From a virus (Duplodnaviria; Caudoviricetes), in IMG/VR virus record IMGVR_UViG_3300036852_000419, positions 1 through 53,263 of that record: a stretch of 53,263 nt of DNA. One strand, given 5' to 3'. The notes beneath the pieces were generated by a model. The model made no database searches. It had not been told where the DNA came from and saw only the letters and a list, made by a program, of their open reading frames with translations. The translations under genes were made by a program, and so were the position numbers. Below, one piece after another: positions 5,476 to 47,675 of the stretch; the stretch's first letter is position 1, and each line of letters begins with the position of its first letter.

Positions 5476-6202
<727 letters not shown>

Positions 6203-44625: not shown

Positions 44626-44794
44626 GATAAGGAAATCGTTAATGCAAAGCTAATGCTTCGCTTACTCGCGCTTTTCAGAGCGCACTGTGACGAACGATTT
44701 CCTATCTGGACCCCCGCGTGCTAAGAGCTTCGTCAGATGCTCAGACCGCTAAACGCAGATTTCGGTGACGAATCCGATACATCCTACTTTCGGA

Positions 44795-44823
44795 AGTCTA
44801 TATCGTTAACGGAAGACTGTCAA
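44795..44823 (-). promoter_or_regulatory. Promoter of the capsid operon
   Basis: Minus strand TTGACA-17 nt-TAGACT. Confidence 0.7.
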
Positions 44824-44938
44824 GGAGAGAATTGTTCCACGTGATACAAAGAAGAAGCCCCGTTAGCTGAAGCTAGGAGGCCGTAACCGAAGCTAACCAG
44901 AGACGCGACTCTAGCACCCCTCCGCCTCGCGTGTCCAG

Positions 44939-44974
44939 CAAAAAGCCCCTGAACGCGTGACCGCTCAGAGGCTT
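44939..44974 (-). terminator. Intrinsic terminator-like hairpin
   Basis: Minus strand AAGCCTCTGAGCG...CGTTCAGGGGCTTTTT. Confidence 0.6.
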
Positions 44975-45046
44975 CGAGGCTCCACACGGAACCTGGACGT
45001 GGTTTTCGTGCAAAAGAAGGCTAACAGCGTCTGAGTCTCCAGTCTA

Positions 45047-45088
45047 GAAAAAAGAGCCCCGCTCTTGTAATGCACGAAAGCGAGGCTT
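45047..45088 (-). terminator. Intrinsic terminator-like hairpin
   Basis: Minus strand AGCCTCGCTTT...AGAGCGGGGCTCTTTTTT. Confidence 0.6.
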
Positions 45089-45150
45089 CAGCGTTCCCTA
45101 CAGATCAGCGCGAGAAAGGCATCTCGCTATGGACAACTCCTTGAAAAAGC

Positions 45151-45372
45151 TTATGGCACATCCTGCTCTTTAAACTTCGCGACGGGTTCACGAGGCGAGA
45201 TTTCCCATGGCATCGGACCGACTTTGAGGTGATTCACGTGAGCCAGCGGGTCGCCAGCGTCGCTCGCGAGCGTGGACTTCGAAACTACTTTCGAGGTCCA
45301 GAGCATGGAGTCGGTGGAGGGAGCTGAGCCGATGCTGGTCAGCTTGGCGGCGGGGTTGAGCATTTCGTTCAT
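45151..45372 (-). CDS. Hypothetical protein
   Basis: ORF ahead of a terminator; start is approximate. Confidence 0.45.
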   Translation of the reverse strand: MNEMLNPAAKLTSIGSAPSTDSMLWTSKVVSKSTLASDAGDPLAHVNHLKVGPMPWEISPREPVAKFKEQDVP

Positions 45373-45376
45373 AAGA

Positions 45377-45610
45377 TTAGCAGATGATCTCAGGGAGCCA
45401 GTGAGGTGTCGTAGTATCTCGCGTAAACATCGGAAGTCCCCATTGTGGATAAGGCACTGATTTCTCGACCACACGCTCGATCACCGGAAATACGTTGCGC
45501 GGCGAGAGCGTCTCGTTGAGCACTCGCTGAAGCTCTTTAGCTTCTTCGAGAGTGAGTTCCAGAGTGTGAGTACCGACTGTGAGAATGAGCTTTTCGAGTT
45601 TGGCTTTCAT
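45377..45610 (-). CDS. Hypothetical protein
   Basis: MKAKLEKL...ELTLEEAKELQRVLNE. Confidence 0.55.
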   Translation of the reverse strand: MKAKLEKLILTVGTHTLELTLEEAKELQRVLNETLSPRNVFPVIERVVEKSVPYPQWGLPMFTRDTTTPHWLPEIIC

Positions 45611-45698
45611 GAGAGTGGTTGCGAAGCCTTCGAGTTGCACGAAGCTAAACCTGGTTATGAGCCGGGTTCAGACAATTGGCCTGCCGCCCGCAATAAAA

Positions 45699-45905
45699 TT
45701 AGACTGGTTCGCCCGGCTTGCCAGGATCAGTCGTGCCGTCGTAGCCGCTACTGCCGCTGGTGATGATGGTCGCGCTCGACTTGGGACTGCCGCCGTCGGC
45801 TCCGACGGCGCTAGTGTGGAGCTGCATCAACGTAGCCTCAGAACTAAACATAGGCGTCGGTGTAGGCATAGAGAGCGGCACAAGAGTTTGGGAATTCGAA
45901 TTCAT
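45699..45905 (-). CDS. Small Ser/Thr/Gly-rich protein
   Basis: ORF downstream of a minus-strand TTGACA. Confidence 0.45.
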   Translation of the reverse strand: MNSNSQTLVPLSMPTPTPMFSSEATLMQLHTSAVGADGGSPKSSATIITSGSSGYDGTTDPGKPGEPV

Positions 45906-45916
45906 GGTAAAAGATG

Positions 45917-45942
45917 TTGACATTTCCCCTAGAAATTGTCAA
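45917..45942. promoter_or_regulatory. Inverted repeat made of two opposed TTGACA boxes at a strand switch
   Basis: TTGACATTTC-CCCTA-GAAATTGTCAA. Confidence 0.55.
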
Positions 45943-46071
45943 GCTCTCTCTCGTGACGCTCGTATTTCAGACAACAACTCTTTCCGTGCATGTGGAGCCG
46001 CTTAGAACGGATGAGCGTCACAACTCCCTTTCTGATTTCTCTACATGCGCGATTTTCTAAGGAATGGTCAA

Positions 46072-46689
46072 ATGAGCAAAGCAACTCAAATCGGGACAGA
46101 CATCAGCAACGACGGACAGTTTACGGTGGACTGCTCGAAACCTTACATTGCCACAGTGGTCATCGAAGGCGTGTGCGATCTGTTGTTTCATCGCTGGTCC
46201 AACGAAGATGTGGAAGCTAAAGGGAATGCTGCTAAAGGCAGCAAAGCCAAGAAGCAGGACAACCTGGAGGCTTACGTGTATCGCACCGATGACGGGATGC
46301 TAGCTATTCCCGGCACTTACCTGAGAGGCGCAATTGTGGCCGCAGCCAAATTCAAGCAAGACCCACGCTCACCTCGCAAGTCAATGTGTGATCTGGCGAA
46401 GGCTGCTGTGGTACCGCTTACTGTACTGGCGTCACTTGGAGTGAAAGCTTGGGATTACGAGGACAGGCAGCGAGTCACAATCCAGCGCAATGCCATCACG
46501 CGCTGCCGTCCTGCTATGAAAACTGGATGGAGAGCTGAATTTAACCTGCTTTGCAATCTTCCAGAATATGTGTCGCCGCAGTGCTTGAATGAGCTTATTC
46601 AGAGCGCAGGGAGACTGATCGGGCTGGCTGATTTCAGACCTAGCTACGGAAGATTCTCAGTGATTGGATTTTCAGTCCATCAGGACTGA
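46072..46689 (+). CDS. Stand-alone RAMP/Cas7-like protein
   Basis: N-terminal strand VVIEGVCDLLFH; AIPGTYLRGAI, similar to the RAMP IPGSSLKGAlR helix motif; C-terminal Gly loop IGLADFRPSYGRF. ATG at 46072 has AAGGAA upstream; alternative start at 46045. Confidence 0.75.
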   Translation: MSKATQIGTDISNDGQFTVDCSKPYIATVVIEGVCDLLFHRWSNEDVEAKGNAAKGSKAKKQDNLEAYVYRTDDGMLAIPGTYLRGAIVAAAKFKQDPRSPRKSMCDLAKAAVVPLTVLASLGVKAWDYEDRQRVTIQRNAITRCRPAMKTGWRAEFNLLCNLPEYVSPQCLNELIQSAGRLIGLADFRPSYGRFSVIGFSVHQD

Positions 46690-46894
46690 GTTGGAGTAAG
46701 ATCGGATGGGGTGCGATGTGGTCTGGTTTGGTCGTGCTGGGTCCGGTTCGGTGTGGCGAGATGCGGTGCGATTTGGTCTGATCGGGTTAGGTAGTGTGTG
46801 TTGTGGTATGATTAGGCTTGGCACGGTTAGGTCAATCGAGGTCCGCTACGGTGCGGTTGCGGTGTGCTTGGTTAGGGTGCGTTATGTCAGGGTA
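46690..46894 (+). ncRNA. Pentamer-periodic (GGY-NN)n array, putative guide RNA of the RAMP protein
   Basis: 41 consecutive 5-nt units; 21 start with GGT/GGC and 7 with GAT, while positions 4-5 vary. Flanked by the RAMP stop codon and a terminator. Confidence 0.75.
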
Positions 46895-46897
46895 TTC

Positions 46898-46936
46898 AAG
46901 ACTCAGGTCTCGAAAGGGATCTGAGTCTTTTCTTTT
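46898..46936 (+). terminator. Strong intrinsic terminator
   Basis: AAGACTCAGGTCTC-GAAA-GGGATCTGAGTCTT followed by TTCTTTT. Confidence 0.85.
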
Positions 46937-46981
46937 GTAACTGCCTCTGAGCCTTGCAAGCGAGAAGTGAAGAGAAAATGC

Positions 46982-47010
46982 TTGACGCTGGCTCATTGAG
47001 CGTGTAGAAG
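46982..47010 (+). promoter_or_regulatory. Sigma70-type promoter
   Basis: TTGACG-17 nt-TAGAAG; shares GCGTGTAGAA with the promoter at 1500. Confidence 0.6.
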
Positions 47011-47022
47011 GGAGAGCGAAAG

Positions 47023-47316
47023 ATGACCAACCCACTCGAAACAGCTTCAGTGCCTCTCGCGCTCCAGCCTCCCCCCCGCGAAGACCGCCGCCTGCGCTGG
47101 TATCACGCCAAGCTCGCGTTGGGGCTCTGCGGGACGTGTGGCTCGAAGCCGCGCGCTCAGGGCTGTGACGGAAAGCTGTCAGTGAAGTGTGTCGAGTGTC
47201 TGGTGAGCGCGAGAGCGAGAGAGCGCATCAAGCACGGCTGGAAACCGCGATATGTGAGCGGGATGGGCAGGCGAATTTGGCATGGAGCGAAGCGAAGTGA
47301 GGAGGTGGTGTCGTGA
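47023..47316 (+). CDS. Basic zinc-finger-like protein
   Basis: GLCGTCG...KCVEC. Confidence 0.6.
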   Translation: MTNPLETASVPLALQPPPREDRRLRWYHAKLALGLCGTCGSKPRAQGCDGKLSVKCVECLVSARARERIKHGWKPRYVSGMGRRIWHGAKRSEEVVS

Positions 47317-47675
47317 GCACTTGGCTATGCGCACAATGCTCAGCCGAATTCAGAACTGAAGCGACTTTGCACGAACATTGCTTGATCGCACACTTGACGG
47401 ATAAACAGCTTCCCCTCCCTCAGATCTTTCTCGACGCCGCCGCACTGATCTCTGGACCGCGCCACGAAAGCTATGGTGACTACGCTGATGAAGCTAATCG
47501 AATCGCTGCGGGATGGAGCGTGCTCATCCAGGCTCCTGTTCAACCTCGTCACGTGCCTATGATGATGGTCTGGCTCAAGCTGATGCGAGAGACACATAAG
47601 CCGGGACAAGATAATAGAACTGATGCGGCGGGCTATCTCGCGCATTTGGATAAGATGATGCAGACAAAGCTATGA
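47313..47675 (+). CDS. C2H2 zinc finger fused to a DUF6378-like domain
   Basis: CAQC-x3-F-x5-L-x2-H-x4-H, then AAALISGPRHESYGD...MVWLKLMR...DNRTDAAGY. Confidence 0.7.
   Translation: MSTWLCAQCSAEFRTEATLHEHCLIAHLTDKQLPLPQIFLDAAALISGPRHESYGDYADEANRIAAGWSVLIQAPVQPRHVPMMMVWLKLMRETHKPGQDNRTDAAGYLAHLDKMMQTKL

What the first reader, a model, noticed from the sequence alone, without database searches (positions are those of the whole stretch)
46072..46936. Stand-alone RAMP/Cas7-like gene plus a GGY-NN pentamer RNA and terminator: candidate non-CRISPR RNA-guided system
Seen: a ~205-aa protein with RAMP-like motifs (first strand, IPGTYLRGAI helix, terminal G-rich loop GLADFRPSYGRF). From the base after its stop there is a ~205-nt tract with strict 5-nt period, then a near-perfect GAAA hairpin and U-tract. 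No other cas effector genes and no repeat-spacer CRISPR array are visible in the genome. Known: Cas7/Csm3-type RAMPs polymerise along guide RNA at a fixed number of nucleotides per subunit. Inference: the protein oligomerises on this RNA with one subunit per pentamer. It would bind the constant triplet and display the variable dinucleotides to read a gapped DNA/RNA target, for example to silence competing phages or host genes. I recall a recent report of a similar phage architecture under the name VIPR, but I cannot verify that here, so novelty must be checked.
Basis: partly seen in the sequence, partly recalled or inferred. Interest (0 to 1): 0.97.

Follow-up and report, generated by a model that had tools for sequence, protein, structure and literature searches.

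The report
VIPR guide-RNA system in soil phage
A complete soil-phage genome carries a small Cas7-like protein gene followed directly by a five-base-repeat guide RNA, which makes it a new example of the VIPR RNA-guided DNA-silencing systems first described in 2026 preprints.

Summary
A 205-aa gene (46072-46689) is followed from the next base by 41 pentamers in one register (46690-46894). A 14-bp GAAA hairpin and T-run follow (46898-46936).

The protein has a RAMP/Cas7 fold. A profile of the family matches the solved SUSP1 Vipr protein (PDB 36pp, E 1.3e-17). The residues that hold the GGY triplet in SUSP1 are kept: H40, R146, D187 and R189, with F188 in place of Trp.

35 of 44 related loci carry the same kind of pentamer array within 1 kb of the gene. 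The window has no CRISPR array, Cas1 or Pfam RAMP match.

This is a VIPR system (Vipr + vrRNA), published in preprints of April-October 2026. Here it rests on homology only.

Local features:
- no vap gene;
- one long array in the vipr 3' UTR, 41 units against 9-16 in SUSP1;
- 7 GAT units;
- a plain terminator as tail.

No natural target and no RNA data were found, and the VIPR type could not be assigned.

This scan has noted VIPR-like loci before: 537 findings in at least 405 genomes.

Verdict: a real feature and a new member of a known kind, of modest interest.

The parts
46059..46063 (+). Ribosome-binding site AAGGA, 8 nt before the ATG of vipr
   Evidence: Read directly from the sequence.
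46072..46689 (+). vipr gene: a 205-aa minimal RAMP/Cas7-like protein. The predicted fold has an RRM core, a helical insert (about residues 44-68), a thumb hairpin (129-149) and a G-loop (184-194).
   Evidence: ORF listed. phrog_4652 matches at E 7.3e-16. PDB 36pp 'SUSP1 Vipr protein' matches at E 5e-05 with the single sequence and at E 1.3e-17 with the profile, over chain residues 5-190 of 202. The AF2 model has pLDDT 94.6. Fold searches give Cas7/Csm3/Cmr4 matches: Foldseek E 3.5e-07 and Z up to 12.2.
46690..46894 (+). vrRNA array: 41 pentamers of the form G-R-Y-N-N in one register, starting at the base after the stop codon. By triplet: 18 GGT, 3 GGC, 7 GAT and 13 degenerate.
   Evidence: The triplet carries about 1 bit per position and the NN positions about 0 bits. 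No fold beyond chance.
46898..46936 (+). 3' end of the transcription unit: a 14-bp stem with a GAAA loop and a T-run. It is an intrinsic-terminator-like hairpin and takes the place of the vrRNA 'tail'.
   Evidence: terminator scan; z -4.70, and 0 of 200 shuffles fold as well.

Best explanation
The locus is a VIPR system (Viral Interference Programmable Repeat) carried as an accessory cassette of a complete 53-kb tailed phage from soil.

Proposed working, with each step marked:
1. vipr and the pentamer array are transcribed as one unit that ends at the hairpin terminator. This is inferred: there is no gap and no terminator between them.
2. Vipr protomers load along the RNA, one per pentamer. 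They hold the G-R-Y triplet through the beta-sheet His (H40), the thumb Arg (R146) and the G-loop D-F-R (187-189), and they expose the two variable bases. This is inferred from homology to the SUSP1 cryo-EM structures.
3. The filament reads double-stranded DNA by pairing each NN with two target bases and skipping every third. Binding represses transcription of the bound gene, most likely in a competing phage, satellite or prophage. This is inferred from the published system. No target was found here.
4. The 41 units probably hold three or four guides of about 10-12 units rather than one guide. This inference is weak. It rests on the lengths of the matching segments in related arrays.
For: Protein.
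- Direct sequence homology to the experimentally solved SUSP1 Vipr.
- Of the five SUSP1 residues that contact GGY (named in 10.64898/2026.04.26.720927, section 5), four are kept and the Trp is Phe (alignments).
- R146, D187 and R189 are at least 90% conserved in 61 diverse family members.
- A confident RAMP fold model. Its 29 hits at Z of 8 or more are almost all Cas7-type chains.

RNA.
- The only period-5 array in 53 kb abuts the gene.
- The triplet is informative and the NN positions are not.

Family.
- 35 of 44 related loci have an array of 8 or more units within 1 kb of vipr. That is 80 arrays in 66 kb near the gene, against 3 in 84 kb further away.
- Across the 80 arrays called on the held loci and the window, the NN positions are close to uniform.

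Context.
- The record is a whole virus.
- No CRISPR array, Cas1 or Pfam RAMP match.
- The closest IMG/VR relative found by capsid protein (L051, 76% identity) has other genes at the syntenic place and no vipr, so the cassette is accessory.

Targeting rule in this clade.
- 12-unit guides from all arrays give more high matches under a 1-nt skip than under 0 or 2. Guides scoring 19 or more of 24 number 53, against 17 and 8.
- They also beat unit-shuffled guides. Guides scoring 20 or more number 15, against 3, 2, 0 and 1.
- Two arrays of Planctomycetota loci (Vipr 56% identical) match the ParB-methylase gene beside vipr in sibling loci at 21 of 24, with the skipped base on the wobble position. Their own copies score 18 of 24.
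Against: - No RNA data exist for this phage, so expression, processing and binding are untested.
- No target above chance was found in the phage itself, in 50 held loci or in IMG/VR.
- 13 of 41 units miss G-R-Y, and 7 units are GAT. In SUSP1, GGY>GAY was one of the substitutions tested (legend of fig. S12), and the Results say that perturbing GGY abolished silencing.
- No vap accessory gene was found. The paper calls a vap 'typical' of VIPR loci.
- The 3' tail is a plain terminator, not the pseudoknot of the SUSP1 clade.
- At 41 units the array is far longer than the 9-16 units described for vrRNAs.
- The enrichment under the 1-nt skip is inflated by overlapping sliding guides. A reversed-guide control gave 6 guides at 20 or more.
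Confidence: 0.87

Rival explanations
1. The array is mainly a decoy or sponge rather than a set of working guides. It would titrate or redirect Vipr proteins, the phage's own or a rival's, in the way that satellite-borne solo vrRNAs redirect SUSP1 VIPR to decoy sites.
For: Decoy vrRNAs are described in 10.64898/2026.10.15.759431 (abstract and section 8 read). No target was found for the window's array. One third of the units are degenerate.
Against: The array sits in cis with an intact, conserved vipr gene. That is the arrangement of working systems. The decoys in print are solo RNAs on elements without vipr. Failure to find a target is expected when the host and its mobile elements are unknown.
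Confidence: 0.05
2. The protein is a RAMP with another job in this clade, for example RNA binding or processing, or RNA targeting. The DNA-silencing mechanism of SUSP1 would then not carry over.
For: Identity to SUSP1 Vipr is low: the single-sequence match covers only the C-terminal 66 residues. The nearest solved folds other than Vipr are RNA-targeting type III and type VII Cas7 proteins. There is no vap gene.
Against: The residues that hold GGY are kept. Related arrays give their best matches under the DNA-type 1-nt skip rule, on wobble phase. The paper reports that all seven types share the repeat code (Results, section 9).
Confidence: 0.05
3. The tract is a decaying or non-functional simple repeat, or it codes for protein (ORF 46706-46924, 72 aa).
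For: 13 of 41 units are degenerate. Mechanical ORFs overlap the tract.
Against: A period of 5 does not fit codons. The register is held over 205 nt. The NN positions carry no information while the triplet does. The same arrangement recurs in 35 of 44 related loci, with arrays on either side and either strand. The ORFs through such arrays are artefacts of the repeat.
Confidence: 0.02

Closest known systems
VIPR systems (Vipr protein + vrRNA). The reference is the type II system of Escherichia phage SUSP1 (bioRxiv 10.64898/2026.04.26.720920, .720927 and 10.64898/2026.10.15.759431; PDB 36pp).
   Same: - A protein of about 200 aa with a minimal RAMP fold.
- Homologous G-loop and thumb residues.
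- Tandem pentamers with a fixed triplet and variable NN.
- A viral genome, with no cas genes and no CRISPR array.
   Different: - Only distant sequence similarity: single-sequence E 5e-05, profile E 1.3e-17.
- No vap gene.
- A single array of 41 units lying in the 3' UTR of vipr, instead of separate ~100-nt vrRNAs of 9-16 units.
- GAT units are tolerated, and the residue that stacks on G2 is Phe instead of Trp.
- The tail is a terminator hairpin, not a pseudoknot.
- The target is unknown.
- The type (I-VII) could not be assigned, because the figures and supplements that define the types are not held.
'Staggered' vrRNA arrays and non-canonical VIPR repeats (legend of fig. S18 of 10.64898/2026.04.26.720920; GAC/NN and similar patterns in 10.64898/2026.10.21.760802, passages read)
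   Same: Long uninterrupted pentamer arrays without tails between the guides. Repeat triplets that depart from GGY.
   Different: Whether the window's tract is cut at 1-nt-overlapping positions as in those arrays cannot be told without RNA ends. In the window GAT is a minority unit, not the dominant one.
Cas7-family backbone subunits of class 1 CRISPR effectors (Csm3, Cmr4, type VII Cas7)
   Same: RRM core, thumb hairpin and G-loop. The predicted fold matches at Z 10-12. These subunits polymerise along a guide RNA at a fixed step.
   Different: The step is 5 nt rather than 6. There is no CRISPR array and there are no partner cas genes. The Pfam RAMP model is not matched. The guide code is gapped.
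TIGR-Tas tandem interspaced guide RNA systems (recalled; named in passages of 10.64898/2026.10.21.760802)
   Same: A non-CRISPR guide array made of short tandem units beside its effector gene, often in viruses.
   Different: The array period is 18 nt and the effector fold is different. Nothing in the window resembles it.

Membership tests
VIPR system | Vipr protein: a minimal RAMP with an RRM core, a thumb and a glycine-rich loop, homologous to described Viprs | tested here: met
   The profile of 61 family members matches PDB 36pp 'SUSP1 Vipr protein' at E 1.3e-17 over chain residues 5-190 of 202. The single sequence matches at E 5e-05. The AF2 model has pLDDT 94.6. Cas7-type fold matches: Foldseek E 3.5e-07, Z 12.2.
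VIPR system | Residues that hold the GGY triplet in SUSP1 (H17, R138, D177, W178, R179) | tested here: met
   The aligned residues are H40, R146, D187, F188 and R189. Four are identical and Trp is replaced by Phe, also aromatic. R146, D187 and R189 are at least 90% conserved in alignment A1.
VIPR system | vrRNA: at least 4 tandem GGY/NN (YNNGG) pentamers beside vipr | tested here: met
   41 units in register from the base after the stop codon. 21 are strict GGY and 28 are G-R-Y. It is the only such array in 53 kb.
VIPR system | NN positions variable while the triplet is conserved | tested here: met
   Within the array the information is 1.00/0.83/1.04 bits for the triplet and 0.10/0.00 bits for NN. 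Across the 80 arrays called on the held loci and the window, NN is near uniform. Comparison with near-identical phages was not possible: the second sample is identical.
VIPR system | Conserved structured 3' tail after the repeats | tested here: inconclusive
   A strong hairpin with a T-run follows the array. It looks like an ordinary terminator. The 60 nt after the terminal arrays of relatives fold no better than random 60-mers (mean -16.0 against -16.3 kcal/mol).
VIPR system | vap accessory gene next to vipr (called typical, not universal; six vap genes are named for seven types) | tested here: not met
   The neighbours have no DNA-binding or nuclease family match. No neighbour is shared with the related loci. 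The next ORF (47023-47316) lies after the terminator.
VIPR system | RNA is expressed and co-purifies with Vipr | not testable with these tools
   Only two DNA soil-metagenome runs hold the stretch.
VIPR system | Targets that obey the 1-nt skip rule (NNx) in other mobile elements, with no self-target | tested here: inconclusive
   No self-target above the shuffled null, as the paper reports for its systems. No convincing outside target. Related arrays do show skip-1 matches on wobble phase.
CRISPR-Cas class 1 effector (Cas7/Csm3/Cmr4) | RAMP fold | tested here: met
CRISPR-Cas class 1 effector (Cas7/Csm3/Cmr4) | Association with a repeat-spacer array and other cas genes | tested here: not met
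   No repeat families. No tandem repeat with a CRISPR-like period. No Cas1. No Pfam RAMP match anywhere in the record.

The most novel reading that the evidence does not exclude
The 41-unit tract is not cut into guides of 9-16 units. It works as one ~205-nt guide, or as a continuum of overlapping guides, in the 3' UTR of the vipr mRNA. More than 40 protomers would then read about 120 bp of gapped target. The code is relaxed at the second position (G or A), and this relaxation goes with changes in the residues that touch that base: Phe for Trp in the window's clade, and Gln-Tyr plus loss of the thumb Arg in a sister clade rich in GAC units.
Probability: 0.12. Interest if true: 0.5.

Novelty: new member of a known kind. 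Interest (0 to 1): 0.25.

Why it matters
VIPR is a class of RNA-guided DNA binders described only months ago, and it has been proposed as older than CRISPR. This locus adds a complete, uncultivated soil-phage example with a very compact layout: one gene, its 3' UTR as the guide array, one terminator and no accessory gene.

Its clade is large: 3826 proteins at E of 0.001 or less. Its arrays are long, with a median longest array of 22 units and a maximum of 87.

The locus does not change the picture for a specialist. It does give a clean minimal construct for two questions: whether long arrays are processed, and whether A is tolerated at the second repeat position.

Tried and rejected
Targets.
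- The array's NN code was scanned under the 1-nt skip rule against the phage itself. Skips of 0 to 3 were also tried. Nothing exceeded shuffled guides.
- The best self-match is units 24-35 on vipr itself (46494-46528), at 19 of 24. That equals the null maximum and is off the wobble phase.
- Scans against all held loci and against two capsid-related phage loci found nothing above the null.
- Five exact NNx seed patterns were searched in IMG/VR: units 11-21, 3-11, 12-20, 21-29 and 30-38. They gave 0, 0, 0, 1 and 0 hits.
- The one hit (L050) matches units 21-30 at 20 of 20 and does not extend. It lies between two genes of a 38% GC contig. I treat it as chance.
- An array of L031 matches window 5738-5772 at 20 of 22, but the skipped base falls on codon position 1. 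I left this as unexplained.

Array structure.
- I tested whether TGCTN and TGTGT units mark guide boundaries. Across 80 arrays the interruptions are simply one-mismatch variants of the repeat, so I dropped the idea.
- No Rfam family, and so no hammerhead, matches in 45600-47400.
- The consensus scan finds no + strand sigma-70-like promoter before vipr or before the array.

Other checks.
- No RNA holder was listed for the stretch. A second soil sample holds identical pieces, so it gave no variation to analyse.
- Complex prediction with three copies of the protein returned no verdict.
- The host was not identified.
- The type (I-VII) was not assigned. The figures and supplementary data that define the types are not held or are closed, and they may already list this clade.

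Full report
WHAT IS THERE

The window is a whole virus record of 53,263 bp with direct terminal repeats, rated 100% complete. On the + strand an ORF runs from 46072 to 46689 (205 aa), with AAGGA 8 nt before the ATG.

From the base after the stop codon, 41 pentamers stay in one register to 46894.
- 28 of the 41 fit G-[GA]-[CT]-N-N: 18 GGT, 3 GGC and 7 GAT. 21 fit strict GGY.
- The three scaffold positions carry 1.00, 0.83 and 1.04 bits. The two N positions carry 0.10 and 0.00 bits.
- Autocorrelation is 0.51 at lags 5 and 10, against 0.23-0.33 at other lags. The ten strongest period-5 windows of the whole record all lie at 46601-46826.
- Frames of 41 units across both strands hold on average 2.5 conforming units (sd 1.65). 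The best + strand frame away from the locus holds 11.
- A stricter caller finds no other array in the record.
- Tandem Repeats Finder does not list the tract, so the period is real but degenerate, not 'strict'.

The tract has no fold beyond chance (z -1.03). It is followed at 46898-46929 by a 14-pair GAAA hairpin and a T-run. That hairpin has z -4.70, and 0 of 200 shuffles fold as well.

THE PROTEIN

Pfam gives nothing. PHROGs gives phrog_4652, of unknown function, at E 7.3e-16.

Against the sequences of solved structures, the single protein matches 36pp, 'SUSP1 Vipr protein', at E 5e-05 over its last 66 residues. A profile of 61 diverse relatives (A1) matches the same chain at E 1.3e-17, over residues 5-190 of 202.

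The cryo-EM preprint names the residues that hold the GGY triplet: H17, R138, D177, W178 and R179 (10.64898/2026.04.26.720927, section 5). In the alignments these fall on H40, R146, D187, F188 and R189 of the window's protein. R146, D187 and R189 are at least 90% conserved in A1.

The AlphaFold2 model is confident (pLDDT 94.6, pTM 0.87). It shows a beta-alpha-beta core, a helical insert, a long beta hairpin (129-149) and a loop at 184-194.
- Foldseek returns Cas7-family chains of type VII and type III complexes, from E 3.5e-07.
- The independent aligner gives Z 12.2 (Cmr-beta), 11.9 (Csm) and 11.8 (Csm3). 29 chains reach Z of 8 or more, nearly all Cas7-type.

THE FAMILY AND ITS ARRAYS

The family is large. 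3826 proteins match at E of 0.001 or less among 4069 candidates. Among 50%-identity representatives, 1143 match. Only 1 of 50,697 deposited phage records holds a relative. That is phage DSL-LC04, 49.8% identical, where the gene is annotated as a helix-turn-helix regulator.

I fetched 9 viral, 5 genomic and 33 metagenomic loci, plus the DSL-LC04 locus. After dropping my own locus L011 and four duplicate contigs (L022, L028, L043, L044), 44 loci remain.
- 35 of the 44 have an array of at least 8 conforming units within 1 kb of vipr. That is 80 arrays in 66 kb near the gene, against 3 in 84 kb elsewhere.
- Of the 9 without such an array, three are cut at or inside vipr. Two (L041, L025) have a period-5 tract with another triplet directly after the gene.
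- Arrays lie upstream, downstream or on the opposite strand.
- The longest array per locus has a median of 22 units and a range of 10-87. The window's 41 units are therefore long but not unique in this clade.
- Across the 80 arrays called on the held loci and the window, the triplets are GGC 806, GGT 243, GAC 185 and GAT 26. The NN positions are near uniform.

WHAT IS KNOWN

A search for 'VIPR', 'phage' and 'RNA-guided' and one for 'vrRNA' found three preprints of one laboratory and one of another.

10.64898/2026.04.26.720920. I read the abstract, all Results, the Discussion, methods sections 18, 20, 26 and 27, and the supplementary figure legends. It defines VIPR as follows:
- a Vipr RAMP protein with vrRNAs of 9-16 YNNGG repeats and a 3' tail;
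- a 1-nt skip rule for double-stranded DNA targets;
- transcriptional silencing of competing mobile elements;
- seven types and six vap genes;
- staggered arrays, ribozyme-spaced arrays and single-guide layouts.

10.64898/2026.04.26.720927. I read the abstract and sections 5 and 6. It gives the filament structure.

10.64898/2026.10.15.759431. I read the abstract and sections 8 and 17. It shows the biology with a satellite, and it describes decoy and solo vrRNAs.

10.64898/2026.10.21.760802. I read passages only. It reports 99 period-5 clusters, including non-canonical triplets such as GAC/NN.

Figures and supplements are not held, so I could not see which type this clade belongs to, or whether it is already listed.

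HOW IT MOST LIKELY WORKS

By homology, Vipr protomers bind one per pentamer and hold the triplet. They present NN to pair with two of every three target bases, and this silences the bound gene.

Shown here: the homology, the conserved contact residues, the fold, and the array with its family-wide linkage to the gene.

Inferred: co-transcription with vipr, loading of the protein, DNA targeting and the biological role.

The cassette is accessory. The nearest IMG/VR relative by capsid protein (L051, 76% identity) has a 505-aa gene and XRE-like small genes at the syntenic place, between the capsid gene and the DUF6378 gene. It has no vipr.

TARGETS

None was found for the window's array.
- Self-scans stay within shuffled nulls under skips of 0 to 3. 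This fits the paper's report that its guides gave no self-targeting hits at 80% or more NN match.
- Held loci and capsid-related loci give nothing.
- Five exact seeds in IMG/VR give one hit that does not extend.

As a check of the rule in this clade, I scanned 701 twelve-unit guides from all arrays against all held DNA.
- A skip of 1 gives 53 guides with 19 or more of 24 matches, against 17 for a skip of 0 and 8 for a skip of 2.
- Real guides give 15 at 20 or more, against 3, 2, 0 and 1 for unit-shuffled guides and 6 for reversed guides. Overlapping guides inflate the real count.
- Two arrays of Planctomycetota loci match the ParB-N/DNA-methylase gene that lies beside vipr in sibling loci. They match at 21 of 24 with the skipped base on the wobble position, and their own copies score 18 of 24.
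- In these cases, and in the L031 match, only 11-12 consecutive units match. This is the (weak) basis for reading long arrays as strings of shorter guides.

POINTS AGAINST, AND OPEN POINTS

- There are no RNA data.
- There is no vap gene.
- One third of the units are degenerate.
- Seven units are GAT. A GGY>GAY change was among the perturbations tested in SUSP1 (legend of fig. S12), and the Results say that perturbing GGY abolished silencing.
- The tail is a plain terminator, and tails are not detectably structured across relatives.

VERDICT

The system is already in print, and this scan has noted it many times on other DNA: 537 findings in at least 405 genomes. It is a new member of a known kind. 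Interest 0.25.

Noticed in passing
L006, L010, L029, L030, L033, L036, L037, L039, L045 against the window and L001-L005, L007, L012-L021: Protein and repeat vary together. Loci with a G-loop reading D-F-R-P and a thumb reading R-x-R-P (the window's kind) have 8% GAY units (49 of 630). Loci with Q-Y-R-P and a thumb T-S-P-G, where the thumb Arg is lost, have 13-50% GAC units. In that second group the arrays lie on the strand opposite to vipr, starting about 14 nt after its stop. L025, whose Asp is replaced by Thr, has a TGY-like period-5 tract. In the passages I read, the preprints name odd triplets but not this residue co-variation.
   Followed up: partly
L014:4636-4695 against L012:5185-5219 and L013:5151-5185; L013:6319-6378 against L012:6064-6098: Arrays of Planctomycetota VIPR loci match the ParB-N/N6_N4 DNA-methylase gene beside vipr in sibling loci at 21 of 24 bases, under the 1-nt skip rule and with the skip on the wobble position. 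Their own copies score 18 of 24.
   Followed up: partly
window 5738-5772 (in gene 5476-6168, no Pfam family): [quoted passage not shown]
   Followed up: partly
window 44626-47022 against L051:1259-4044: The stretch between the capsid gene and the DUF6378 gene is a variable slot. The window holds two small minus-strand ORFs, vipr with its array, and a Cys-rich 97-aa ORF. The 76%-related phage fragment L051 holds a 505-aa gene and XRE-like small genes instead.
   Followed up: partly
L001 (phage DSL-LC04, OR003939.1 22429-23046): The only deposited phage with a relative of this protein annotates it as a 'helix-turn-helix transcriptional regulator'. Three pentamer arrays lie just upstream of it and are not annotated.
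   Followed up: partly
L007:3732-3921 and L007:4624-4913: The two arrays flanking one vipr gene (38 and 58 units) share their last units and the same hairpin tail. The longer array contains an internal duplication of an 8-unit block, which suggests that arrays grow by duplication.
   Followed up: no
window 46982-47010: TTGACG, a 17-nt spacer and TAGAAG lie just before the next gene (47023). The genes downstream of the VIPR terminator may therefore have their own promoter. This was read by eye, and the scan did not list it.
   Followed up: no
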